Shown: positions 1 to 27,279 of the stretch, piece after piece
Position numbering within the stretch: the stretch's first letter is position 1
Layout of the letters: every line of letters begins with the position of its first letter
Source of the DNA: a virus
Lineage: Duplodnaviria > Heunggongvirae > Uroviricota > Caudoviricetes
Direction: 5' to 3' (one strand)
DNA: 27,279 nt
IMG/VR virus record: IMGVR_UViG_2541047774_000009
The notes under the pieces: model-generated
The model's database searches: none
Told to the model about the DNA's origin: nothing
Seen by the model: the letters and a program-made list of their open reading frames with translations, nothing else
Position numbers and translations under genes: made by a program

Positions 1-3053
<3,053 letters not shown>

Positions 3054-3079
<26 letters not shown>

Positions 3080-3599
3080 TCAGCAACCCCGGTATCAGTT
3101 CATCCAGCGCGGCTGCTTTGTTCATGGCTTTGATGATATCCCGTTTCAGGAAATCAACATGTCGGTTTTCCAGTTCCGGAAAACGCCGCTGCACCGACAG
3201 GGGGATCCCGTCGAGAATACTGGCAATTTCACCTGCGATCCGCGACAACACGAAAGTACAGAATGCGGTTTCCACCACTTCAGCGGAGTCTCTGGCATTC
3301 TTCAGTTCCTGTGCGTCGGCCTGCGCACGCGTAAGTCGATGGCGTTCGTACTCAATAGTCCCTGGCTGGAGATCTGCCTCGCTGGCCTGCCGCAGTTCTT
3401 CAACCTCCCGGCGCAGCTTTTCGTTCTCAATTTCAGCATCCCTTTCGGCATACCATTTTATGACGGCGGCAGAGTCATAAAGCACCTCATTACCCTTGCC
3501 ACCGCCTCGCAGAACGGGCATTCCCTGTTCCTGCCAGTTCTGAATGGTACGGATACTCGCACCGAAAATGTCAGCCAGCTGCTTTTTGTTGACTTCCAT
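3054..3599 (-). CDS. Nu1: Terminase small subunit Nu1 (181 aa)
   Basis: Translation MEVNKKQLADIFGASIRTIQNWQEQGMPVLRGGGKGNEVLYDSAAVIKWYAERDAEIENEKLRREVEEL matches lambda Nu1; located immediately downstream of cos. Confidence 0.95.
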
Positions 3600-3776
3600 T
3601 GTTCATTCCACGGACAAAAACAGAGAAAGGAAACGACAGAGGCCAAAAAGCTCGCTTTCAGCACCTGTCGTTTCCTTTCTTTTCAGGGGGTATTTTAAAT
3701 AAAAACATTAAGTTACGACGAAGAAGAACGGAAACACCTTAAACCGGAAAATTTTCATAAATAGCGAAAACCCGCG

Positions 3777-3788
3777 AGGTCGCCGCCC
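3777..3788 (-). other. cosN cohesive-end sequence (12 nt); cosB lies between here and Nu1 start (3600-3776)
   Basis: Reverse complement of 3777-3788 is GGGCGGCGACCT, the lambda 5' cohesive end; reverse complement of 3600-3790 reproduces the lambda left-end sequence (GGGCGGCGACCTCGCGGGTTTTCGCTATTTATGAAAATTTTCCGG...). Confidence 0.85.
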
Positions 3789-3937
3789 CGTAGCCTGTTG
3801 GATCGCCGGAAAGGACCCGAAAAACGAGAATAATTATCACTTACAGCAAGAATCGAATCTGATCTATTATGGTGCTTGCTATTATGTGCCGGCACAAGTG
3901 CGTCGTTTACCGTCATTTCACACAGAGGCATCATCAA

Positions 3938-4189
3938 ATGAAAATCAGAAATATTCTCGCTATCTCCCTTGCAACATCATCCTTCAGTTGCCTGGCATTT
4001 AAATCCTCGCCCAATGTGCTACCAGGACCAACGAATCAACTAACTGCGGTAGAAAGTAAAATTATCGGACATTTTTATGCCCCACACAGTGCATTACCCG
4101 GAACAACCATCACAGGGACATGTGACGCCTCCCCCGTCCCGGGATGCACCTGTCCGTTTTGTACTATGCTGCGTAGCCAAAACCGATAA
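3938..4189 (+). CDS. Hypothetical small secreted protein (83 aa) with N-terminal signal peptide and Cys-rich C-terminus
   Basis: Internal ATG of track ORF 3869..4189; product MKIRNILAISLATSSFSCLAFK... has a hydrophobic signal-like N-terminus and CDASPVPGCTCPFC near the C-terminus; no family recognised. Confidence 0.3.
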   Translation: MKIRNILAISLATSSFSCLAFKSSPNVLPGPTNQLTAVESKIIGHFYAPHSALPGTTITGTCDASPVPGCTCPFCTMLRSQNR

Positions 4190-4552
4190 CATCCGCATTT
4201 ACCTGGTATTCCATGATGAGTTCACGCAGCGACTGATAGAGGAAGGAAAGATGGTTAGCAAAAGCAAGGCGCATTGCCGCCGCATGCTGCAGGCATTGCA
4301 ACAGACGAGAGCAGGTATTTTTGACCAGTTGGAAAACTGCCAGCATACTTTGCCCGAGTATATCGCCATCTCATCGGAAACCAGTGCAACTCTTATTCAT
4401 CGGGTTCCACTAGAGAAAAAGAAGAAATGAACAGTGAGGCGTTGTGTGGCATACAACGCCTTCTTCCATCATTCCTCGTCAGCCATGACAAAAATATAAC
4501 CGCTGGCTCTTTCATTTTTCTCCTGCTTCCAGCCCCTCTCTACCTGGAAGCA

Positions 4553-4879
4553 TCAGGGACGTGACGGCGTAAAGATAAATTGTCTCTTCACTCCCTGACA
4601 GGGACGATTCTTTTCAAATCGCCATTTCGCCATGGCCTTCACCACTTCATCACGAAACAAATTATGAGGCTCTGAGCGGAGAAAAACGATCCGTGTCACA
4701 GTCCCATCAGCACCAATATCGAACTTAACCTCAACCAGCCCCTTGATATAATTTGCTGCAGCATATTCCGGATATCGTGGATACACCGTCACTAATTGCC
4801 GGGGCTCATCAGCTTTTTGCTGCGAGCATCCCACTGCTAGGACAGATAACAGAAAAAGTAGTAAAAGGCGTCTTTTCAT
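4553..4879 (-). CDS. Lipoprotein with TonB C-terminal-like domain (108 aa)
   Basis: Start at internal ATG 4877-4879 with AGGA upstream; N-terminus MKRRLLLLFLLSVLAVGCSQQ (signal peptide plus lipobox LAVGC); C-terminal segment YIKGLVEVKFDIGADGTVTRIVFLRSEPHNLFRDEVVKAMAKWRFE resembles TonB C-terminal fold. Confidence 0.5.
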   Translation of the reverse strand: MKRRLLLLFLLSVLAVGCSQQKADEPRQLVTVYPRYPEYAAANYIKGLVEVKFDIGADGTVTRIVFLRSEPHNLFRDEVVKAMAKWRFEKNRPCQGVKRQFIFTPSRP

Positions 4880-5359
4880 TTTTATTCCTACGGGTCTTAT
4901 TCTGACAATATATCCTGTGTTCCAGACTGCCACATCACCACATCCTGTGCCATTATCTGACTCACATTACATACATCGCATCGGGATACAGTAGTAGCAC
5001 TTTCTGTAATACAGCTTCCGGTTTCTTCCACCATCGCACCGGGATAAATCCGCGAATCATTAACGCGGTAAAAACCCGGTGTGCATCGTTTTTAATTATT
5101 CCCGCACACTCACGCAGAAGGAATTCCCCGTCGGGCTACGGTCATGGTTAATGCGGGAATACGGCGACGATACAGCGCAGCTAAAAGGGTAATGGACGGA
5201 TAGACCGGTTTATTTCATTCTACAGGATTCTGAGTGTCCCCAACTCCCTCCAATCGTCTGAGCTCACCTGTGTAGTTTTAATTTTCATCAATCCATTTAA
5301 CTATCGTTTAATTGTTGTCACATAGGATTCTGCCGTTTTTAACAATGCAGGATAATAAG

Positions 5360-5653
5360 ATGAAAAAAATGTTGTTTTCTGCCGCTCTGGCAATGCTTAT
5401 TACAGGATGTGCTCAACAGACGTTTACTGTTGGAAACAAACCGACAGCAGTAACACCAAAGGAAACCATCACCCATCATTTCTTCGTTTCGGGAATTGGG
5501 CAGAAGAAAACTGTCGATGCAGCAAAAATTTGTGGTGGTGCAGAAAATGTGGTTAAAACAGAAACCCAGCAAACATTCGTAAATGGATTGCTCGGTTTCA
5601 TCACTTTTGGCATTTATACTCCGCTGGAAGCGCGGGTGTATTGCTCAAAATAA
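5360..5653 (+). CDS. bor: Bor lipoprotein (serum-resistance outer-membrane lipoprotein, 97 aa)
   Basis: MKKMLFSAALAMLITGCAQQTFTVGNKPTAVTPKETITHHFFVSGIGQKKTVDAAKICGGAENVVKTETQQTFVNGLLGFITFGIYTPLEARVYCSK closely matches lambda Bor; oriented opposite to lysis genes as in lambda. Confidence 0.9.
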   Translation: MKKMLFSAALAMLITGCAQQTFTVGNKPTAVTPKETITHHFFVSGIGQKKTVDAAKICGGAENVVKTETQQTFVNGLLGFITFGIYTPLEARVYCSK

Positions 5654-5684
5654 TTGCATGAGTTGCCCATCGATATGAGCAACT

Positions 5685-6146
5685 CTATCTGCACTGCTCA
5701 TTAATATACTTCTGGGTTCCTTCCAGTTGTTTTTGCATAGTGATCAGCCTCTCTCTGAGGGTGAAATAATCCCGTTCAGCGGTGTCTGCCAGTCGGGGGG
5801 AGGCTGCATTATCCACGCCGGAGGCGGTGGTGGCTTCACGCACTGACTGACAGACTGCTTTGATGTGCAACCGACGACGACCAGCGGCAACATCATCACG
5901 CAGAGCATCATTTTCAGCTTTCGCATCAGCTAACTCCTTCGTGTATTTTGCATCGAGCGCAGCAACATCACGCTGACGCATCTGCATGTCAGTAATTGCC
6001 GCGTTCGCCAGCTTCAGTTCTCTGGCATTTTTGTCGCGCAGGGCTTTGTAGGCGATTGCGTTATCACGGTAATGATTAACAGCCCATGACAGGCAGACGA
6101 TGATGCAGATAACCAGAGCATAAATAATCGCGGCGACTCTGCTCAC
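5685..6146 (-). CDS. Rz: Rz i-spanin (153 aa, GTG start overlapping R stop)
   Basis: Translation from GTG at 6144-6146: (M)[59 protein letters not shown]... matches lambda Rz. Confidence 0.9.
5744..5926 (-). CDS. Rz1: Rz1 o-spanin lipoprotein (60 aa), embedded in Rz in +1 frame
   Basis: [60 protein letters not shown], lipobox VVGC and Pro-rich tract, near-identical to lambda Rz1; entirely inside Rz. Confidence 0.9.
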
Positions 6147-6676
6147 TGATCTATCCCCCAACAGGCTAATGCGCTTTCCTGGTCACGACGAATAACCTGT
6201 CCATAGCAGTTATTTGAACGTATGCGGCAATCGCGCCCACCATCTTTTATCCACCAGCGAATCGCCTCGCATGCACCTTTACGATCACCGGCATTCAGCC
6301 GCTTATAAAACGTCGACGGGAAACACTTACCGGGGCCAATGTTATAGGGACAAAATGACGCGATACCCGCTTTCTGTGGTTCGGTCAGTGGCACTTTAAT
6401 ATTGCGCTCCACCCATGCCAGCGCCTTATCCCGTTCAATGGCGTTAACCTGGTCGCATTTTTCCTTCGACAGTTTCATACCGGGAACAACGGGTTTTCCA
6501 TCCACCACCGTGGCACCCCGACAGATGGTCCAGATGCCGGAACCATCGCGGTATGCCGTTGTGTGGTTACCTTCTTTTTCATCCAGAAACTGGTCGAGAA
6601 TATCAGGCGCAGGCGCACCGACGGCAATCAGTGCCAGAACGGCAGCCGACAGGCCGTATCTGATTTTTGCGTTCAT
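6143..6676 (-). CDS. R: SAR endolysin (GH24 T4-lysozyme-like, 177 aa)
   Basis: N-terminal signal-arrest-release segment [16 protein letters not shown] followed by catalytic E-x8-D-x5-T triad ([16 protein letters not shown]); matches P21/933W-type R rather than lambda transglycosylase. Confidence 0.9.
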
Positions 6677-6781
6677 GGATATTTATCAGGATTTATCGGT
6701 TTCTGAACCCTGGATATGTTTATCTGTCCCGGCCTGTTGAATCAGGCAAGGAATAGTTAAATACAATAGAGAGGATTGTTT

Positions 6782-7054
6782 ATGGACAATAGCACCATTT
6801 CTCTACAGGAGTTGCTCGACTGCATTTCCAGGCTTCGGGATGATGTAAATGCCCTTACTGTCGCATTTTCATATCTGGCATTCTCAATTCCCAAGGAACA
6901 AATGCAACCAACACTGGCATCGCTCCAGCTTGAATCAATCAATCCCAAATGGTCCCAGCAACAACAAAATTCTTTCAAGTGGCTGGCGGTATTACTGGAG
7001 GAAAAATATGCTGGTGAAATTACCATTTCGGCGGAGTCTTCAGTGAACCAGTAA
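6782..7054 (+). CDS. Hypothetical small protein (90 aa), antisense to the lysis operon
   Basis: ATG at 6782 preceded by GAGAGGA (6767-6773); occupies a 343-nt gap between the DUF1327-like gene and R; 3' end overlaps DUF1327-like gene on the opposite strand by 35 nt; no family recognised. Confidence 0.35.
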   Translation: MDNSTISLQELLDCISRLRDDVNALTVAFSYLAFSIPKEQMQPTLASLQLESINPKWSQQQQNSFKWLAVLLEEKYAGEITISAESSVNQ

Positions 7055-7364
7055 TTCTTCCCGGCAGTTTTCCTTTGTAGGTTATCCACACACTCTGCGC
7101 CTCTAAAATTATGGGGCGCTTTTCCGGCGACTGCTCATCCCCTCCACATAACCCGGCAGCAACATCCAGGAAGACCTGTCTGATGCTCCTTCTGGCTGCT
7201 GCCTCATAAAACTCCAGCGCGGCACCTTCAACACGGTCCAGCGAGATGTCCAGGTCAAAAATTTCACCGTCAAAGCGTTCTTTGTCCTGTAATGCTAAAG
7301 TTACCGTAACTTTATTCTCAAAATTGCGGATCCCTTTCACAATCATTTCATAGTTTTGGACCAT
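7020..7364 (-). CDS. DUF1327-family phage protein (YdfR-like, 114 aa)
   Basis: MVQNYEMIVKGIRNFENKVTVTLALQDKERFDGEIFDL...; AGGAG RBS; sits between holin and endolysin as ydfR does in Qin-type prophages; start 4 nt after holin stop. Confidence 0.6.
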   Translation of the reverse strand: MVQNYEMIVKGIRNFENKVTVTLALQDKERFDGEIFDLDISLDRVEGAALEFYEAAARRSIRQVFLDVAAGLCGGDEQSPEKRPIILEAQSVWITYKGKLPGRITGSLKTPPKW

Positions 7365-7368
7365 TATA

Positions 7369-7584
7369 TTACTCTCCTCTCGCAGCCTTTCTTCTGTCTT
7401 CTCTGATTTTGAAGTACAGATTCGTCAGATAAGTCAGAAAGCCCAGAACCAGACTTCCCAGTACACCAATCGCAGCCCACTGAGACGGACTAACCTGATC
7501 AAGCCATTGTAAAAACCAGTAGCCAGCACTGCCTGCGGAGGTGCCGTAGGCAATGCCTGTTGATATTTTTTCCATCTGATACAT
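7369..7584 (-). CDS. S: Class II holin/pinholin, S21/EssD-like (71 aa) with dual-start motif
   Basis: [71 protein letters not shown] matches S21/EssD family; two in-frame ATGs (7584 and 7575) 3 codons apart; paired with SAR endolysin. Confidence 0.85.
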
Positions 7585-7693
7585 ATCCCGCCCCAACAGA
7601 CCTGTGCTACCGGAAAGAAAAAAGGCCATCAGCAAAACTCTGATGGCCTGAATCACCTTTACCAGTCATGTATGAAAAAATACGCACAACCAA

Positions 7694-8677: not shown

Positions 8678-9769
8678 TCACAAAATTGTATTTGCTGATA
8701 ACATACTGATTTCCTGGATGGTCTGATTAAACCGCTCTGTCTCAAGCTCAACACCTAACGCCCGACGCCCCAGCGCCATTGCTGCTTTTATTGTGGAACC
8801 GGATCCCATAAAGAAATCAGCAACCAGATCGCCGGGTCGACTACTGGCATTGATTATTTGCCTGAGCATATCCGCCGGTTTCTCACACGGATGTTTACCC
8901 GGGTAGAACTGAACGGGTTTATGCATCCAGACATCGGTATAAGGCACGGAGACTGATACGGAGAAATAGCGCCGGAGAGATTTAAACTCATCCAGCAATT
9001 CAGAATATTTGCGATTCAGTGAATCATAAGATGCCACCAACTGGTGGTGTGGTTGTTCCAGTTGTTGTTCCTGAAACTTCTCTGCCGCTATACGGGAAAA
9101 CAGTGCCTGTAACTTCCGGTAGTCAGCCTCATTCGGCAACTGCCACTGACTGGCACCAAACCAGTGGGAAACCATATTTTTCTTACCTGTGGCTTCGGCA
9201 ATTTGTTTTGCCGTTATACCCAGTTCGGCACGAGCATCCCTGAAATACGATATCAGCGGTGCCATTATGTGCTGTTTGAGTTCCCTTTCTTTTGCCGCAT
9301 AGCCGTCACTTTTGCCGCGATATGGCCCCTGGTAATGTTCAGCAAACAGAACGCGCTCTGTGGCAGGAAAATATGCGCGCAGACTTTCTTTATTACACCC
9401 ATTCCAACGTCCGGACGGCTTCGCCCAGATGATATGGTTAAGCACGTTGAAACGTTCACGCATCATGATCTCAATATCAGATGCCAGGCGATGCCCACAG
9501 AACAGGTAAAGGCTTCCGGCTGGTTTCAGTACCCGCCAGAACTGGGCCAGACAGTGGTCCAGCCACTTCAGGTAATCTTCGTCCCCTTTCCACTGATTGT
9601 CCCAGCCGTTGGGCTTCACTTTGAAGTACGGCGGATCGGTAACAATCAGATCAATGGAGTTATCAGGCAGGGACTGAATAAAATGCAGGCAATCAGCGTT
9701 GATTAAATCAACACTGTTTATTTTTACAGTATTTTCATGGATCAGTAAGCGTAACTCTGGTAGGCTCAC
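8678..9769 (-). CDS. Orphan DNA methyltransferase, beta-class N6-adenine/N4-cytosine type (363 aa)
   Basis: Motif IV DPPY near N-terminus (LIVTDPPYF) and AdoMet motif I near C-terminus (DFFMGSGST): circularly permuted beta-class order; GTG start at 9769; no adjacent endonuclease gene. Confidence 0.8.
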   Translation of the reverse strand: MSLPELRLLIHENTVKINSVDLINADCLHFIQSLPDNSIDLIVTDPPYFKVKPNGWDNQWKGDEDYLKWLDHCLAQFWRVLKPAGSLYLFCGHRLASDIEIMMRERFNVLNHIIWAKPSGRWNGCNKESLRAYFPATERVLFAEHYQGPYRGKSDGYAAKERELKQHIMAPLISYFRDARAELGITAKQIAEATGKKNMVSHWFGASQWQLPNEADYRKLQALFSRIAAEKFQEQQLEQPHHQLVASYDSLNRKYSELLDEFKSLRRYFSVSVSVPYTDVWMHKPVQFYPGKHPCEKPADMLRQIINASSRPGDLVADFFMGSGSTIKAAMALGRRALGVELETERFNQTIQEISMLSANTIL

Positions 9770-22546: not shown

Positions 22547-22753
22547 ATGCTGAACCTCGATTGTGTTCCTATCTCAACTTATTGCAAAGAAACTGGCGAA
22601 ACTCCTGAAGCAATAAACAAACGTGTACAGCGCGGTGTTTGGCGTGAAGGTGTTCAGGTTTTAAAGGTTGAAGGCGTTAAGGAGAGGTGGATTGATCTTA
22701 GTGAGGTTGCAAAATGGGCCAGACAAAACTGCTCAAACTACCGCGCGGCGTAA
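22547..22753 (+). CDS. xis: Excisionase-like protein (68 aa; alternative start 22535)
   Basis: Small basic ORF immediately upstream of and overlapping int by 40 nt; GGAG RBS; resembles prophage excisionase-like proteins. Confidence 0.6.
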   Translation: MLNLDCVPISTYCKETGETPEAINKRVQRGVWREGVQVLKVEGVKERWIDLSEVAKWARQNCSNYRAA

Positions 22754-23889
22754 CAATCAGGAAACACCGCCAGGGCGAAACGATCAATATAACTTTCACC
22801 TACAAAGGAGTTAGATGTCGTGAGCCGCTTTCCAATCTGGAAGTAACACCAAAGAACATTAAATACGCCGAGCGTACACTCGGCGAAATCCATAATAAGA
22901 TCGAAAGGGGAACATTCATTTATGCAGAATATTTTCCCCGTTCTGCTCGTTTGAAAATTTTTGGTAATGCTGCTGCAGGCAAAACGGTAAAGATGTACCT
23001 GGACGAATATCTTGAAATCTGCGAAACAAGAAAACTTTCACCCTCTACGATTGGTGGCTATAAAAAATGCCGTAGTGCGTTAGCCTCACTTCACATTTGC
23101 CCTGCAAGTGAATTAACACCAGCAACCCTGAAAGCGTGGATTCAAAGCCAGAAAACAACCTTAAAAACCATTCGCAACCAGTTATCTTTCCTGCGGTCAG
23201 CACTTGATGAAGCCGTGACCGATGGGGTACTTCAAATTAACCCCGTATCGTTAGTAACAGCTTCGCGCTACCAAAGTGATAAGTCAGAAGCAGAAAGCAG
23301 CTATGTGGTTGATCCGCTATCACCAGCAGAAGTTGATGCATTACTAGCAGCAGCCGGAAACAAACAATGGGAAAATCTGTTCCGGTTCGCTATACATACA
23401 GGCCTGCGTAGTTCTGAACTATGTGCCCTTCGATGGCGTGATATCGACTTTGTTGGAAAAACAGCACATGTCCAGAGCGCAAGTGTTGTTGGTGTTATCA
23501 AAGGGACCAAAACAAAAGCCGGTACTCGTAAAGTTGAACTGACAGAAGAGGCAATGTTGGCGCTGATAAATCAGAAGCCATTTACGTTCATGAAAGATGC
23601 TACGGTCTTTGAAGATCCAAAGACCAATAAGCCTTGGGCAAGTGCTGATGCAATCAGGAAAAAAGCATGGGTGCCAACATTGCGAAAAGCAGGTATTCGC
23701 TACAGAAACCCATATCAGACCAGGCACACTTATGCTACTAAGTACATTAGCCAAGGAGCTAATCTCTTCTGGCTAGCAGGGCAGATGGGGCATAAGGGGC
23801 CCGAAATGTTGTTTCGTCATTATGGGCGTTACTTGAGTGATTATGACAACCACAGCTCAACAACGCTCACAAGTAATTGCAAAAAGTAG
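22714..23889 (+). CDS. int: Tyrosine integrase (391 aa)
   Basis: Catalytic-domain motifs HTGLRSSEL (Arg), RHTYATK (His/Arg) and LFRHYGRYL (Tyr nucleophile); N-terminal arm-binding-like domain. Confidence 0.9.
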   Translation: MGQTKLLKLPRGVTIRKHRQGETINITFTYKGVRCREPLSNLEVTPKNIKYAERTLGEIHNKIERGTFIYAEYFPRSARLKIFGNAAAGKTVKMYLDEYLEICETRKLSPSTIGGYKKCRSALASLHICPASELTPATLKAWIQSQKTTLKTIRNQLSFLRSALDEAVTDGVLQINPVSLVTASRYQSDKSEAESSYVVDPLSPAEVDALLAAAGNKQWENLFRFAIHTGLRSSELCALRWRDIDFVGKTAHVQSASVVGVIKGTKTKAGTRKVELTEEAMLALINQKPFTFMKDATVFEDPKTNKPWASADAIRKKAWVPTLRKAGIRYRNPYQTRHTYATKYISQGANLFWLAGQMGHKGPEMLFRHYGRYLSDYDNHSSTTLTSNCKK

Positions 23890-24139
23890 CCTTGAGCAAG
23901 GTAAAGCATGTTATTCAAAGAAGCCTATTTCGTTCAAAACGAGAGGTCCTCCACAAATCCACGCTTGAATAGGTATTCTTTACAATTATGAGCATACCCC
24001 TTATAGATTTATTCCATTGAAAAATGCCATCCCCCTGATAAAACAACAGTATTATTGTTTCAAAAAAAATGTTATAAGTAAATTCACTTACATGTAACGT
24101 TTAAATTTTTGTTTAAGAAGTATAAATTAGAGGGATAAA

Positions 24140-24991
24140 ATGACTACACCAGTAATAAGTTTCATAAATATGAAAGGTGGGGTTGGTAAAACAACTTTAT
24201 GCGTCGGCATTGCTGAATATCTTGCAAACTTCATGGATAAAAAGGTATTAATTATCGATATTGACCCACAATTTAACGCTACACAGTCAATACTTAGTAA
24301 ATATGATCGAGTGAAAGAGTATATAGCTGATCACTTAGAAAATACAAAAACCATCAGACGAATATTCGAGACAAAATCAAGCTTAACGGGTAAAGTTCAG
24401 CAGGTCACTCCTGATGAAATTATCATCAAGATGTCAGAGCACTTAGATATGATTTTTGGTGATATTAATACAATATTTGATATTGAACAACCTGCGGCAA
24501 GATTACATAAGCTAAAACGCTTTATAGAAGAACATAAGCTTCGAGATATATATGACTTCATTTTGATCGATAGCCCACCAACCATTTCATTATTTACTGA
24601 TGCAGCTCTCGTTGCTTCAGATTATTATATTGTGCCAGTTAAAATTGACCACTACTCAATTTTAGGTGCGACAAGTCTTTTAAGCGTAATAGAAAACATT
24701 CAAGATAATTATGACCATAAAAACATTCAAAACCTTGGTTTTATTTATACTAATACCCTAGAAAATCTATCAAAAAAGACAAAAAAGCTAAAGACAGACT
24801 TTGAAAGTACTGAACCTTTTAATGAACTATACTTTTTTGATAACCAGTTGAAGTTTGTACAGGATTTGATGGTGGGTGGTAGAGGTAATATATCATCAAG
24901 TTATAAATCATCCAGAAAATATATCAAAGCGATTTGTGAAGAGTTTTTAAGTCGGATCCAAGAAGTGCAAACGGGGGGGGAAGATGAATAA
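24140..24991 (+). CDS. ParA/MinD-family P-loop ATPase (283 aa)
   Basis: Deviant Walker A MKGGVGKTT, IDIDPQFNATQ motif, ILIDSPPTISLF Walker B-like segment; AGAGGGA RBS; AT-rich. Confidence 0.85.
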   Translation: MTTPVISFINMKGGVGKTTLCVGIAEYLANFMDKKVLIIDIDPQFNATQSILSKYDRVKEYIADHLENTKTIRRIFETKSSLTGKVQQVTPDEIIIKMSEHLDMIFGDINTIFDIEQPAARLHKLKRFIEEHKLRDIYDFILIDSPPTISLFTDAALVASDYYIVPVKIDHYSILGATSLLSVIENIQDNYDHKNIQNLGFIYTNTLENLSKKTKKLKTDFESTEPFNELYFFDNQLKFVQDLMVGGRGNISSSYKSSRKYIKAICEEFLSRIQEVQTGGEDE

Positions 24992-25397
24992 AAATAGTAA
25001 CAACCTCGAATTATTACAGACATTGGTTTATAAGAAGCCCTCGTCAAAAGAAGCGTTTATTGGTTTGATAACAATAGCAATCTATTCTAGGGAAATTTTT
25101 GTTAAAAATGAAGATGCAGCAGAATTCGTAAAAAATGTATTTGGATTAAGTTTCTTAGACTACGTCATCAAGTCAAGAACTTTATTATGCGCTAGACTTA
25201 CCCGTAATCTTGTAAATATGAGCGAGAGAGACATTAAAGAATGCATATATAAAGCATCAGAGTATTTTAAAACTGACAAATTTATTATTGGATATAATGA
25301 AAACTCACTTACTTTTAAAAAAAGTAACGTCAAACGTAATGCAAATCGAGATGTAGGTACGTGGATTAATGCTCTTTTGAAGAAGGATAGAAAATAA
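24984..25397 (+). CDS. Hypothetical protein (137 aa), second gene of ParA-like operon
   Basis: Start overlaps ParA stop by 8 nt; Lys/Asn-rich; no family recognised. Confidence 0.5.
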   Translation: MNKNSNNLELLQTLVYKKPSSKEAFIGLITIAIYSREIFVKNEDAAEFVKNVFGLSFLDYVIKSRTLLCARLTRNLVNMSERDIKECIYKASEYFKTDKFIIGYNENSLTFKKSNVKRNANRDVGTWINALLKKDRK

Positions 25398-26062
25398 TGC
25401 TTCAAAGAGACCCACATGGATTTAGAAAAGACGTAAAAGAATTTATCACAATGATAAAATCATTTCAGGTCGATATTCGCACCGAAAACAATCTTACATC
25501 GGCTTATAAACATGTGCTTTTTCTGGAGTTTATCCATAACTCACATCCAGAAATAAGTCACAAAACCTTTATAAAAAGTATTATTTATGATGTTTTAAGT
25601 TCAATTACAGCGATACTTCATAAACGAGAGCGATATCTTCATCTTAATTTTCGCTCAATGATTGAACATCTTGCACGTATATCCTTACAAAAAGTTGATA
25701 ACGGGGGGGATTTCGATATTACAATTAGAACTCTTGATTTCGAGAATCTTAAATCTACCAACACTGATGAAAACTGGGCGTACATGCATTCACAGTATAA
25801 ACAAGCATGTGGCTGGTTACACTCATCATCTAAAGTTAAATTAAATATCACAGCATCATTTCCAGATTTATTAAAGTCTGATTCAAAAAGTAATGCAGCT
25901 AAACTGTCAACCCATTTGCAAAAGATGACTACCGAAATGTTAAAGATTTTTTTTAACTACTATGTTGATGAGATTCAAACTTCTTTTTACCGCACACGGG
26001 GAGAAATGAGGTATGTGCTTGGCAACCATAACTTCGAATATTTTTTAAGCAAGAATCCATAA
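25397..26062 (+). CDS. Hypothetical protein (221 aa), third gene of ParA-like operon
   Basis: ATG overlaps upstream stop (TAATG), AAGGA RBS; no family recognised. Confidence 0.5.
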   Translation: MLQRDPHGFRKDVKEFITMIKSFQVDIRTENNLTSAYKHVLFLEFIHNSHPEISHKTFIKSIIYDVLSSITAILHKRERYLHLNFRSMIEHLARISLQKVDNGGDFDITIRTLDFENLKSTNTDENWAYMHSQYKQACGWLHSSSKVKLNITASFPDLLKSDSKSNAAKLSTHLQKMTTEMLKIFFNYYVDEIQTSFYRTRGEMRYVLGNHNFEYFLSKNP

Positions 26063-26152
26063 ATATATATTTCCTTAAAAAGGATACGTGAAGTACACGA
26101 AGCATGCGAGAAATAAAATAAAAAAATAAAAATCAATAAATTAAAAACAAAT

Positions 26153-26184
26153 GGACGCTGGTTCAACTCCCGCCAGCTCCACCA
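26153..26184 (+). other. ssrA: 3'-terminal fragment of ssrA (tmRNA) forming an attachment-site junction
   Basis: GGACGCTGGTTCAACTCCCGCCAGCTCCACCA matches the E. coli tmRNA 3' end (T-arm and CCA) with one G-to-T difference in the T-stem; upstream sequence is AT-rich and unrelated to the ssrA body. Confidence 0.8.
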
Positions 26185-26231
26185 AAATTCTCCATCGGTG
26201 ATTACCAGAGTCATCCGATGAAGTCCTAAGA

Positions 26232-26264
26232 GCCCGCACGGCGCAAGCCCTGCGGGCTTTTTTG
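26232..26264 (+). terminator. Intrinsic terminator downstream of ssrA 3' end
   Basis: GCCCGCA...TGCGGGC stem followed by TTTTTT. Confidence 0.6.
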
Positions 26265-26388
26265 TGCCTTGAATTTGTCCCGCGAAGTCTGATGCCAACT
26301 AATTAAATCCGAACCTTTTAGGCACCTTGTTAGGCACCTCATAAAGCTTTATTGTTTTTGAGGTGCCTAAAACTATGGAAACCCGGCA

Positions 26389-27279
26389 ATGGCAAGACAA
26401 ACCAAACCTCTCTCCGTTAAGGAAATCGAATCAGCCAAACCCAAAGAAGTGGACTACGTTCTCTATGATGGTGATGGCCTTGAGCTACTCATCAAATCCA
26501 GCGGGAGTAAAATCTGGCAGTTTCGCTACATTCGCCCTGTCACCAAGAAACGTGCGAAGAAGAGCATTGGCCCCTACCCGTCAGTTACGCTTGCCGATGC
26601 AAGAAACTATCGCGCAGAGTCTCGTTCTCTTCTGGCGAAACAAATCGACCCTCAGGAACATCAGCAAGAACAACTTCGCAGTTCGCTGGAAGCTAAAACC
26701 AATACTTTCCAGCTCGTGGCTGAACGTTGGTGGAATGTGAAGAAAACCAGTGTGACCGAAGACTACGCAGAGGATATCTGGCGCTCTCTTGAGAGAGATG
26801 TTTTTCCTGCGATTGGCGACGTTAGCGTTACAGATATTAAAGCTCACACACTGGTTCAGGCCGTCCAACCGGTTCAGGCCAGAGGAGCACTGGAAACCGT
26901 TCGTCGCCTGTGTCAGCGCATTAATGAGGTCATGATCTATGCCCAAAACACAGGGCTGATTGATGCTGTACCCAGCGTTAATATCGGTAAAGCATTCGAG
27001 AAGCCTCAGAAAAAGAACATGCCCAGCATTCGACCGGATCAGCTACCACAACTGATGCAAACAATGCGAACAGCCAGCATTAGTCTTTCCACACGCTGCC
27101 TGTTCATGTGGCAACTCCTTACTATTAGCCGCCCTGCCGAAGCGGCTGAAGCACGCTGGGAAGAGGTAGACATAGAAGCGCGAGAGTGGAAGATTCCTGC
27201 AGCACGTATGAAAATGAACCGCGACCATACTGTTCCATTGTCAGATGAAGCAATTGTGTCAACGACGGATGAAAAGTGA
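26389..27279 (+). CDS. intA: IntA-like (P4/CP4-57 family) integrase, apparently truncated at 296 aa
   Basis: MARQTKPLSVKEIESAKPKEVDYVLYDGDGLELLIKSSGSKIWQFRYIRP... P4-family integrase N-terminal and core-binding regions; in-frame TGA at 27277-27279 before the catalytic His/Arg/Tyr region. Confidence 0.75.
   Translation: MARQTKPLSVKEIESAKPKEVDYVLYDGDGLELLIKSSGSKIWQFRYIRPVTKKRAKKSIGPYPSVTLADARNYRAESRSLLAKQIDPQEHQQEQLRSSLEAKTNTFQLVAERWWNVKKTSVTEDYAEDIWRSLERDVFPAIGDVSVTDIKAHTLVQAVQPVQARGALETVRRLCQRINEVMIYAQNTGLIDAVPSVNIGKAFEKPQKKNMPSIRPDQLPQLMQTMRTASISLSTRCLFMWQLLTISRPAEAAEARWEEVDIEAREWKIPAARMKMNRDHTVPLSDEAIVSTTDEK

What the first reader, a model, noticed from the sequence alone, without database searches (positions are those of the whole stretch)
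3869..5653. Cluster of envelope-targeted accessory genes beside cos
Between cos and the lysis genes lie a small secreted Cys-containing protein candidate (3938-4189), a lipoprotein with a TonB C-terminal-like domain (4553-4879) and bor (5360-5653). The first two are oriented against, or independent of, late transcription, consistent with lysogen-expressed surface-modifying or host-interaction factors.
Basis: partly seen in the sequence, partly recalled or inferred. Interest (0 to 1): 0.35.

Follow-up and report, generated by a model that had tools for sequence, protein, structure and literature searches.

The report
Exported accessory genes beside prophage cos
Next to the DNA-packaging site of a phage-21-like prophage sit three separately acquired genes for exported proteins: the known serum-resistance lipoprotein Bor, a lipoprotein that is only the receptor-binding end of the host TonB protein (probably a decoy), and a small conserved secreted four-cysteine protein that the annotations I checked leave out.

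Summary
All three genes are real and lie at the stated coordinates. The window is the right end of a phage-21-type lambdoid prophage, 98.7% identical to phage 21, with its late operon on the minus strand.

- **bor/iss (5360-5653, +)** is ordinary.
- **4553-4879 (-)** encodes a signal peptide, a lipobox Cys18, a 7-residue tether and a complete TonB C-terminal domain. It aligns without gaps to E. coli TonB 150-230, and the AF2 model fits TonB from its BtuB and FhuA complexes at about 1.0 Å rmsd. It lacks TonB's membrane anchor and proline-rich spacer. Relatives sit just after the lysis cassette, co-oriented, in five phage lineages.
- **3938-4189 (+)** is a real gene. Its codon-position divergence is 0.24/0.17/0.54. 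It belongs to a family seen only in Enterobacterales, with an AxA|F signal-peptidase site and four invariant cysteines, and it matches no Pfam, PHROG, NCBIfam or PDB entry. PGAP and the phage 21 annotators do not call it.

The three occur separately elsewhere, so this is a low-GC hot-spot for acquired genes, not an operon.

Best mechanism (inferred): the lipoprotein is an outer-membrane-tethered decoy that occupies the Ton boxes of TonB-dependent transporters. The small protein's function is unknown. Interest is moderate.

The parts
3777..3788 (.). cosN cohesive-end sequence (AGGTCGCCGCCC, the reverse complement of lambda's 12-nt end)
   Evidence: Single exact match in the window, none expected by chance. 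Aligns with the lambda and phage 21 right ends.
3812..3818 (-). cosQ (GGGTCCT on the minus strand)
   Evidence: Mapped from the phage 21 annotation (L001 24-30). Sequence read.
3846..5070 (.). Variable accessory-gene slot between the conserved cos segment and the lambda-like bor-Rz segment; low GC
   Evidence: Other lambdoid phages match only query 1-246 (cos side) and 1472-2101 (bor-Rz side). The low-GC tract (0.40-0.51) runs about 3650-5750, so it also covers cos and bor; flanking genes are 0.52-0.55.
3938..4189 (+). Gene for an 83-aa precursor of a small secreted protein: signal peptide 3938-3997 (cleavage CLA|FK), mature protein about 63 aa with four invariant Cys (C62, C70, C72, C75) in the motif GTCxAxPVPGCxCPFCTMLRS
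   Evidence: Homologues. Coding signature. No known family. SD-like GAGG 9 nt before the ATG.
4251..4430 (+). Unresolved 59-aa ORF with a good Shine-Dalgarno sequence (phrog_4843). It overlaps antisense the 60-aa ORF 4164-4346 (-), which PGAP and the phage 21 annotators call (phrog_3744).
   Evidence: No diverged homologues for either ORF, so it cannot be decided which, if either, is a gene.
4436..4462 (.). 12-bp-stem hairpin between the convergent plus-strand unit and the TonB_C gene; candidate two-way terminator
   Evidence: -22.3 kcal/mol for the 66-nt stretch 4425-4490 that contains it, z = -3.6, 0 of 200 shuffles as stable. A T-rich tract follows on the minus strand. The consensus terminator scan did not call it.
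4553..4879 (-). Gene for a 108-aa lipoprotein: signal peptide 4829-4879, lipobox Cys18 at 4826-4828, tether SQQKADE, TonB C-terminal domain 4571-4804
   Evidence: All 3 differences from phage 21 are synonymous.
5360..5653 (+). bor/iss, the serum-resistance outer-membrane lipoprotein, antisense to the late operon
   Evidence: Pfam Lambda_Bor 6e-31, phrog_260, PGAP name 'Iss'. About 95% DNA identity to the lambda bor-Rz segment.
5685..6161 (-). Rz i-spanin with embedded Rz1 o-spanin (5744-5926). Context only: shows the lysis cassette is complete without the TonB_C lipoprotein.
   Evidence: Pfam Phage_lysis 1.6e-53 and Rz1 2.9e-20.
3054..3599 (-). Nu1 small terminase subunit. Context only: the next late gene after cos.
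   Evidence: Pfam Phage_Nu1 9e-101.

Best explanation
The stretch between cos and the lysis genes is the variable accessory-gene slot of a phage-21-type lambdoid prophage. It holds three separately acquired cassettes for exported proteins.

1. **bor/iss** is the known outer-membrane lipoprotein, transcribed against the late operon.
2. **The TonB_C lipoprotein** consists only of a lipoprotein signal, a 7-residue tether and a complete TonB C-terminal domain. It has no membrane anchor and no proline-rich spacer, so it cannot couple to ExbBD and cannot transduce energy. [quoted passage not shown] I infer that it binds those Ton boxes as a tethered decoy and competes with host TonB. That would shut down TonB-dependent entry of phages such as T1 and phi80, of group B colicins, and of siderophore-linked compounds, at a cost in iron and B12 uptake. 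It is transcribed with the late operon at least. Whether it is also expressed in the lysogen is unknown.
3. **The small secreted protein** is released into the periplasm by signal peptidase I and has four invariant cysteines. It is probably disulfide-bonded and probably serves the lysogen. Its activity is unknown.

Shown: gene reality, export signals, fold, orientation, and the modular distribution. Inferred: outer-membrane location, Ton-box binding, competition with TonB, expression timing, and any role of the small protein.
For: **Identity of the region.** It is 98.7% identical to the phage 21 right end. At least 80% of it is present in 820 of 5426 complete E. coli genomes.

**TonB_C lipoprotein.**
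- Pfam TonB_C, 49.2 bits.
- Residues 23-103 align without gaps to E. coli TonB 150-230. Y163, P164, F180, G186, F202, W213 and F230 are kept, and Y215 is replaced by Phe.
- AF2 mean pLDDT is 86. Foldseek gives rmsd 1.0 Å to TonB in the BtuB complex and 0.9 Å to TonB in the FhuA complex, at 39-40% identity.
- The lipobox Cys is invariant and +2 is never Asp in 24 family members at 34-98% identity.
- All 3 nucleotide differences from phage 21 are synonymous.
- It lies after the lysis cassette, co-oriented, before the terminase or packaging genes where these are annotated, in five lineages with different endolysins and terminases.

**Precedent for the mechanism.**
- Ton boxes bind by adding a strand to beta3 of the isolated TonB C-terminal domain, with nanomolar affinity (PMC11658791).
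[quoted passage not shown] A Ton-box peptide reduces colicin killing and phi80 infection (PMC9841981, citing Howard 2001 and Tuckman 1992).
- T5 Llp is a periplasmic outer-membrane lipoprotein that blocks FhuA from the inside (PMC9586334).

**Small protein.**

**Modularity.** The small gene occurs without TonB_C. TonB_C occurs without the small gene.
Against: - There is no experimental or interaction evidence for Ton-box binding.
- Two TonB positions implicated in Ton-box contacts differ: Q160 is Tyr here and variable in the family, and R166 is an invariant Tyr.
- A general decoy would starve a lysogen of iron, so constitutive expression seems costly.
- Phage 21 is cited in the literature held here as a LamB-using phage (reference list of PMC12803456; the receptor itself is from my own knowledge). 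Blocking TonB-dependent receptors therefore gives no obvious benefit for its own adsorption.
- Some family members are not in phages at all.
- TonB-like C-terminal domains can bind other partners: FusB binds ferredoxin (PDB 9hi3).
- I found no convincing sigma-70 promoter for either the lipoprotein gene or the small gene.
- The AF2 model of the small protein is uninformative, with pLDDT 49.
Confidence: 0.55

Rival explanations
1. The TonB_C lipoprotein blocks one specific receptor, as T5 Llp and Cor do. It would bind the periplasmic face of one TonB-dependent transporter and change its outer loops. That would exclude superinfecting phages or stop progeny being lost on cell debris at lysis. It would not be a general competitor of TonB.
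For: Llp is a periplasmic outer-membrane lipoprotein that inactivates FhuA from inside by reverse allostery, and such lipoproteins are said to be common in coliphages (PMC9586334). The position just after the lysis genes in five lineages fits a late, lysis-time role.
Against: The domain is a generic TonB C-terminal domain whose known partner, the Ton box, is shared by all such transporters. There is no sequence relation to Llp or Cor. The receptor of this prophage is outside the window.
Confidence: 0.15
2. The TonB_C lipoprotein is an accessory of lysis: a spanin-like or outer-membrane-destabilising factor that acts with holin, endolysin and Rz/Rz1.
For: PHROG 1267, which it matches at 5e-43, is labelled 'Rz-like spanin'. 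It is an outer-membrane-type lipoprotein like o-spanins. It always follows the lysis cassette on the same strand.
Against: Rz with an embedded Rz1 is present here, and an embedded o-spanin is present in the Salmonella prophage. It has no C-terminal membrane segment as a unimolecular spanin would, and no match to Rz1. It is a globular TonB fold. Relatives exist outside phages. The PHROG label is probably carried over from neighbouring genes.
Confidence: 0.1
3. The TonB-like domain binds something other than a Ton box, for example peptidoglycan, ExbD or an imported protein. The lipoprotein would then have a role unrelated to blocking TonB.
For: The C-terminal domain of FusB, a TonB homologue, binds ferredoxin directly (PDB 9hi3). 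Q160 and R166 equivalents are changed.
Against: The fold matches the transporter-bound TonB conformation at about 1 Å rmsd, and the edge strand beta3 is present. A 7-residue tether to the outer membrane puts it far from ExbD.
Confidence: 0.1
4. The lipoprotein gene is a dead fragment of a captured host tonB, as several records name it ('partial tonB-like', 'TonB fragment'). The small ORF is a chance reading frame.
For: Annotation names. PGAP and the phage 21 annotators do not call the small ORF.
Against: The lipoprotein is only about 40% identical to host TonB, and it belongs to a family with an invariant lipobox across 34-98% identity. All its differences from phage 21 are synonymous. The small ORF keeps its length and four Cys down to 27% identity in six genera and has a clear codon-position signature.
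Confidence: 0.03
5. The three genes form one functional system, co-regulated and acting together on the envelope.
For: They are neighbours. All three products are exported. The small gene and bor are adjacent in Salmonella.
Against: They lie on different strands with a hairpin between the convergent units. Each occurs without the others in other phages, plasmids and chromosomes.
Confidence: 0.05

Closest known systems
Lambda Bor / E. coli Iss (Pfam PF06291)
   Same: The gene at 5360-5653 is a full-length member with a canonical lipobox (LITGC). It sits between Rz and cos, antisense to the late operon, as in lambda.
   Different: Nothing of note. PGAP names this allele Iss rather than Bor.
E. 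coli TonB (energy transducer), C-terminal domain 150-239
   Same: Residues 23-103 of the phage lipoprotein align without gaps to TonB 150-230 at about 40% identity. The model superposes on TonB from the BtuB and FhuA complexes at 0.9-1.0 Å.
   Different: It has no N-terminal membrane anchor and no proline-rich spacer. In their place are a lipoprotein signal and a 7-residue tether. It can therefore bind but cannot transduce energy.
Periplasmic TonB fragments made in the laboratory (Howard et al. 2001, as cited in PMC9841981)
   Same: A TonB periplasmic domain exported without its anchor; reported to inhibit iron import through TonB-dependent transporters.
   Different: Those fragments are soluble, overexpressed artefacts derived from host TonB. 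This is a natural, diverged, lipid-anchored version carried by phages, and its effect is untested.
T5 Llp and the Cor lipoproteins (superinfection exclusion through FhuA)
   Same: Small phage-encoded lipoproteins on the periplasmic face of the outer membrane that act on a TonB-dependent transporter from inside (PMC9586334).
   Different: There is no sequence or fold relation. Llp binds the FhuA plug, not the Ton box, and is specific to FhuA.
Lambdoid 'morons' (accessory genes added at module boundaries, such as lom and bor)
   Same: Variable presence among close relatives, lower GC than the flanks, a position at a module boundary, and envelope products.
   Different: Their own promoters are not demonstrated here for the small gene or the TonB_C gene.

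Membership tests
Bor/Iss lipoproteins (PF06291) | Sequence match to the family model above the curated cut-off | tested here: met
   106.8 bits against a cut-off of 25, covering model positions 1-75 of 75; phrog_260 at 1.4e-58.
Bor/Iss lipoproteins (PF06291) | Lipoprotein signal with lipobox Cys | tested here: met
   MKKMLFSAALAMLITGC|AQQ read from the translation. Judged by the lipobox rule, not by a predictor.
Bor/Iss lipoproteins (PF06291) | Confers serum resistance; expressed in the lysogen | not testable with these tools
   Known for lambda bor (PMC7067206). Not tested for this allele.
TonB energy transducer | N-terminal cytoplasmic-membrane anchor that couples to ExbB/ExbD | tested here: not met
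   The N-terminus is a cleavable lipoprotein signal ending in VGC. The alignment with TonB starts at TonB residue 150.
TonB energy transducer | Proline-rich periplasm-spanning spacer | tested here: not met
   Only 7 residues (SQQKADE) lie between Cys18 and the domain.
TonB energy transducer | C-terminal domain (PF03544) with the TonB fold | tested here: met
   Pfam 49.2 bits against 24.6. PDB sequence hits at 1e-14. Foldseek TM-score 0.90-0.92 normalised to the target, rmsd 0.9-1.0 Å for 2gsk_B and 2grx_C.
TonB energy transducer | Binds the Ton box of TonB-dependent transporters | not testable with these tools
   Inferred from the fold only. No complex prediction or assay was available.
Llp/Cor superinfection-exclusion lipoproteins | Sequence relation to Llp or Cor | tested here: not met
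   The only Pfam and PHROG matches are TonB_C, phrog_1267 and phrog_34172. The structural matches are TonB domains.
Llp/Cor superinfection-exclusion lipoproteins | Outer-membrane lipoprotein facing the periplasm | tested here: inconclusive
   The lipobox is invariant and +2 is never Asp in 24 members, which predicts outer-membrane sorting. Location was not measured.
Llp/Cor superinfection-exclusion lipoproteins | Excludes phages that use a TonB-dependent transporter | not testable with these tools
   Needs plating assays.
Spanins (Rz1-type o-spanin or unimolecular spanin) | Supplies the outer-membrane half of the spanin, or carries a C-terminal membrane segment | tested here: not met
   Rz1 is already embedded in Rz here, and an embedded o-spanin exists in L020. 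The C-terminus VKRQFIFTPSRP is not hydrophobic. There is no Rz1 Pfam match.
Small secreted four-cysteine protein family (unnamed) | Sec signal with an AxA|F cleavage site; mature protein about 60 aa; four invariant Cys in GTCx7CxCxxC | tested here: met
   A20, F21, C62, C70, C72 and C75 are invariant in 27 sequences down to 27% identity.
Small secreted four-cysteine protein family (unnamed) | Membership of any described family | tested here: not met
   No hit in Pfam, PHROGs, NCBIfam, PADLOC or PDB sequences. All database names are 'hypothetical protein'.
Moron (independently acquired accessory cassette) | Present or absent among otherwise closely related phages; base composition differs from the flanks | tested here: met
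   Most lambdoid hits match only the cos side and the bor-Rz side. GC is 0.40-0.51 across about 3650-5750 against 0.52-0.55 in flanking genes.
Moron (independently acquired accessory cassette) | Own promoter and terminator | tested here: inconclusive
   There is a strong hairpin at 4436-4462. No convincing sigma-70 promoter was found for either gene; a TGcTATTAT at 3877-3885 is only a candidate.

The most novel reading that the evidence does not exclude
Temperate phages of Enterobacteriaceae carry a natural dominant-negative TonB: a TonB C-terminal domain tethered to the outer membrane that saturates Ton boxes and switches off all TonB-dependent import. Because at least 15% of complete E. coli genomes carry this slot, it could be a hidden, phage-borne determinant of tolerance to TonB-dependent phages, group B colicins and microcins, and siderophore-linked antibiotics such as albomycin or cefiderocol. 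Beside it sits an unannotated family of secreted four-cysteine mini-proteins that travels on phage right ends and persists in decayed prophage remnants.
Probability: 0.35. Interest if true: 0.65.

Novelty: new variant of a known kind. Interest (0 to 1): 0.4.

Why it matters
If the decoy reading holds, this would be a new way for a phage to control traffic through the host outer membrane. It would copy the host's own coupling domain rather than evolve a receptor-specific blocker such as Llp or Cor. It would act on every TonB-dependent transporter at once.

The full 2.1-kb region is in 15% of complete E. coli genomes, and its inner stretch 4190-4552 is in 23%, including E. coli 536 and APEC IMT5155. 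Any effect on phage therapy, colicin sensitivity, iron uptake or siderophore-antibiotic susceptibility would therefore be widespread and easy to test.

The small four-cysteine protein shows that a conserved exported protein is still left out of the reference annotations I checked for this locus: PGAP on one identical genome and the phage 21 record.

If the decoy reading fails, the region is an ordinary accessory-gene hot-spot containing a known bor gene.

Tried and rejected
- **Lipoprotein reading of the small protein.** Close relatives have SSFSC, which fits the PROSITE lipobox rule. More distant members have ALA|FQAK with no Cys at that position, while A20 and F21 are invariant. I therefore read it as a signal peptidase I substrate.
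- **Fur control of the small gene.** An AT-rich element at about 3820-3841 matches the Fur-box consensus at 14 of 19 positions, and 15 of 19 in L013. Lambda has the same element next to cosQ without the small gene, so it belongs to cos. Rejected as evidence.
- **Spanin reading** from the PHROG 1267 label. Rejected.
- **Structure of the small protein.** AF2 gave pLDDT 49, so it was not searched further.
- **ORF 4251-4430 (+) against ORF 4164-4346 (-).** All 1224 E. coli copies are at least 95% identical, and there are no diverged homologues in phages. Unresolved.
- **The 45-aa ORF 4897-5034 (-)** called in phage 21. Its reading frame is not kept in JLK-2012, so it is probably not a gene.
- **Promoter for the TonB_C gene.** Candidate hexamers have the wrong spacing and are not conserved in JLK-2012.
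- **Searches that returned nothing.** Genome contigs with the lipoprotein; viral contigs with P0175 and P0157; alignment A6 was too diverse for a locus search. The viral-contig scan with A5 returned only near-identical copies and 72%-type copies.
- **Literature.** Searches found no paper characterising a phage TonB-like lipoprotein. Howard et al. 2001 is not held and is cited second-hand.
Full report
**What the window is.** ORF listing and Pfam show a lambdoid late region on the minus strand.
- S holin: 7369-7656
- R lysozyme: 6143-6676
- Rz: 5685-6161, with Rz1 (5744-5926) embedded
- Nu1: 3054-3599
- Terminase A: 1154-3079

The 12-nt cohesive-end sequence AGGTCGCCGCCC occurs once, at 3777-3788. 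cosQ maps to 3812-3818. Positions 3789-5700 are 98.7% identical to the right end of phage 21 (OL657228). At least 80% of the 2.1-kb query is present in 820 of 5426 complete E. coli genomes. The inner stretch 4190-4552 is present in 1224 of them.

Lambda and most other lambdoid phages match only the cos side (to about 3845) and the bor-Rz side (from about 5071). So 3846-5070 is a variable slot. A low-GC tract (0.40-0.51) spans about 3650-5750, against 0.52-0.55 in the flanking terminase and Rz genes.

**bor.** The gene at 5360-5653 (+) is a full-length Bor/Iss lipoprotein: Pfam 106.8 bits, phrog_260, and the PGAP name Iss. It is antisense to the late operon, as in lambda. Lambda bor is known to be expressed in lysogens (PMC7067206). 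This part is ordinary.

**The TonB-like lipoprotein, 4553-4879 (-).**

It is in fact on the same strand as S, R, Rz, Nu1 and A.

*Sequence.* The product reads MKRRLLLLFLLSVLAVGC|SQQKADE, followed by a TonB C-terminal domain.
- Pfam TonB_C scores 49.2 bits against a cut-off of 24.6. NCBIfam TonB models match only their C-terminal 80 positions.
- Residues 23-103 align without a gap to E. coli TonB 150-230.
- With an offset of 127, the following TonB positions are kept: Y163, P164, F180, G186, F202, W213 and F230. Y215 is Phe here. Their functional importance in TonB is from my own knowledge.
- Q160 and R166 are Tyr in this protein.

*Structure.* An AF2 model built on 24 family members has mean pLDDT 86, and above 90 for most of the domain. 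It superposes on TonB from the BtuB complex (2gsk_B, rmsd 1.0 Å) and from the FhuA complex (2grx_C, 0.9 Å). No viral model matches it.

*What is missing.* It lacks TonB's membrane anchor and proline-rich spacer, so it is not a TonB.

*Not a dead fragment.*
- It is only about 40% identical to host TonB.
- The lipobox Cys is invariant, and +2 is never Asp, in 24 members at 34-98% identity.
- Its three differences from phage 21 are all synonymous.

**Where its relatives sit.** They follow the lysis cassette on the same strand, ahead of the packaging or terminase genes where these are annotated, in five settings.

| Setting | Endolysin / spanin | Packaging genes |
|---|---|---|
| Phage 21 type | lysozyme, Rz/Rz1 | Nu1/A |
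| JLK-2012 and Stx1a phages (72% identity) | lysin, Rz-type 'endopeptidase' (as annotated) | 'restriction endonuclease'/DNase ORF, then small and large terminase |
| Klebsiella phage ST13-OXA48phi12.4 (41%) | lysozyme-family protein | none annotated in the stretch read |
| Prophage on a Salmonella plasmid (47%) | GH19 endolysin, DUF2514 | P27-type terminase |
| Prophage with GH108 endolysin (40%) | GH108 | Terminase_2 |

The Salmonella prophage has its own embedded o-spanin, and this window has Rz1. The PHROG label 'Rz-like spanin' for this family is therefore probably a carry-over from neighbouring genes.

Other members lie on plasmids and chromosomes outside phages. Co-orientation does not settle when the gene is expressed. 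Lambda lom is expressed in lysogens, and it is co-oriented with the late genes (the orientation is from my own knowledge).

**Likely mechanism (inferred).**
- Ton boxes bind the isolated TonB C-terminal domain by adding a strand to beta3, with nanomolar affinity (PMC11658791).
[quoted passage not shown] A Ton-box peptide reduces colicin killing and phi80 infection (PMC9841981).
- T5 Llp shows that a phage lipoprotein on the periplasmic face of the outer membrane can inactivate a TonB-dependent transporter (PMC9586334).

A TonB C-terminal domain held 7 residues from the outer-membrane inner leaflet is well placed to occupy Ton boxes and cannot pull on them. I therefore favour a tethered decoy that blocks TonB-dependent entry of phages, colicins and siderophore-linked compounds.

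The weaknesses are:
- no interaction data;
- changed Q160 and R166 equivalents;
- the iron cost to a lysogen;
- the fact that phage 21 is regarded as a LamB user (from my own knowledge, with only a reference title).

The rivals are a receptor-specific blocker like Llp, a lysis accessory, and a different ligand, as with FusB and ferredoxin.

**The small protein, 3938-4189 (+).** Neither PGAP nor the phage 21 annotators call this ORF. It is nonetheless a gene.
- A protein search found 82-84 aa homologues at 55-77% identity in Escherichia, Salmonella, Klebsiella and Citrobacter.
- A profile search of 1.84 billion representatives found 31 clusters. Those looked up were from Enterobacterales, including Enterobacter and Serratia, and all are named 'hypothetical'.
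- Across six genomic contexts the divergence is 0.24, 0.17 and 0.54 at codon positions 1, 2 and 3. The flanks diverge at about 0.55-0.66 at every position.
- Over 27 sequences down to 27% identity, the invariant residues are A20, F21, C62, C70, C72 and C75.

This gives a signal-peptidase-I site (xLA|F), a mature protein of about 63 aa, and the motif GTCxAxPVPGCxCPFCTMLRS. It has no Pfam, PHROG, NCBIfam, PADLOC or PDB match. Its AF2 model is unreliable.

Its relatives are found in these contexts:
- next to cos and Nu1 in other lambdoid prophages, without the TonB_C gene;
- on a Klebsiella plasmid, preceded by a cos half-site and so within a phage right-end remnant;
- next to icd, the phage 21 attachment locus, in Citrobacter koseri;
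- in Salmonella subspecies arizonae, diarizonae and salamae, in the order 133-aa secreted protein, small protein, Bor, omptin.

Its survival beside bor in that non-phage chromosomal setting suggests it benefits the host. Its activity is unknown.

**The rest of the slot.**
- ORF 4251-4430 (+) and ORF 4164-4346 (-) overlap antisense and have no diverged relatives. Which is real stays open.
- A 12-bp-stem hairpin at 4436-4462 separates the convergent units.
- The 45-aa ORF 4897-5034 (-) does not keep its frame in JLK-2012.
- A Fur-box-like element near 3820-3841 also occurs beside cosQ in lambda, which lacks the small gene. It is not evidence of iron control.

**Verdict.** These are envelope-directed accessory genes, but they are three independent modules, and the lipoprotein runs with the late operon. 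The region itself is already sequenced and annotated in phage 21. What is new is the reading of the lipoprotein as a natural anchored TonB decoy, and the recognition of a conserved, unannotated secreted four-cysteine protein family. Interest is moderate until the decoy is tested.

Noticed in passing
window 6757-7364: The lysis cassette is interrupted. Between the S holin (7369-7656) and the R lysozyme (6143-6676) lie two ORFs of unknown function on opposite strands: 7020-7364 (-), phrog_406, and 6776-7054 (+), phrog_2411.
   Followed up: no
window 22714-27279: There are two integrase genes close together: a lambda-type one at 22714-23889 and a P4-type one at 26389-27279 that runs off the window. 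A ParA-like ATPase (24140-24991) lies between them. A second element may be integrated next to the prophage.
   Followed up: no
window 8678-9769: An N6/N4 DNA methylase gene on the late strand, upstream of the lysis genes.
   Followed up: no
L007 about 4850-5252 (Klebsiella plasmid CP024459): The small-protein homologue is preceded by a cosN half-site and a cosQ-like GGAAAGCATCC. The fragment looks like a phage right end that begins at cos. It lies near Fur-family and CobW genes.
   Followed up: partly
L010, L021, L022 (Salmonella subspecies salamae, diarizonae, arizonae): A conserved chromosomal group of four genes: a 133-aa secreted protein with a PPC domain (PliG-like, from memory), the small four-cysteine protein, Bor, and an omptin protease. 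In salamae it is flanked by virulence-type genes.
   Followed up: partly
window 3820-3841: An AT-rich near-palindrome beside cosQ matches the Fur-box consensus at 14 of 19 positions. Lambda has the same element at the same place. Its role in cos, if any, is not known to me.
   Followed up: yes
PHROG 1267: This family of TonB_C lipoproteins is labelled 'Rz-like spanin'. The phages that carry it have complete spanins of their own, so the label is probably wrong.
   Followed up: yes
P0076, P0078 (proteins of about 610-630 aa from the representative library): Low-complexity, eukaryote-like proteins carry 4-5 repeats of P[IL]PGCNCPKCTxLRN. This is the same CxCxxC-LR motif as the C-terminus of the small protein. 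It could be chance or a shared small module.
   Followed up: no
L106 1708-4827: A distant TonB_C lipoprotein (34% identity) lies next to an integrase fragment, and 2 kb from a pore-forming colicin-like gene with a glycine-rich N-terminus. A sister contig lacks the colicin.
   Followed up: partly
L003 (E. coli ZY22049, 100% identical over 3600-5700): In that genome the same slot sits in a decayed prophage: Nu1 is truncated and fused to tail-region remnants. The accessory genes have outlived the packaging genes.
   Followed up: no
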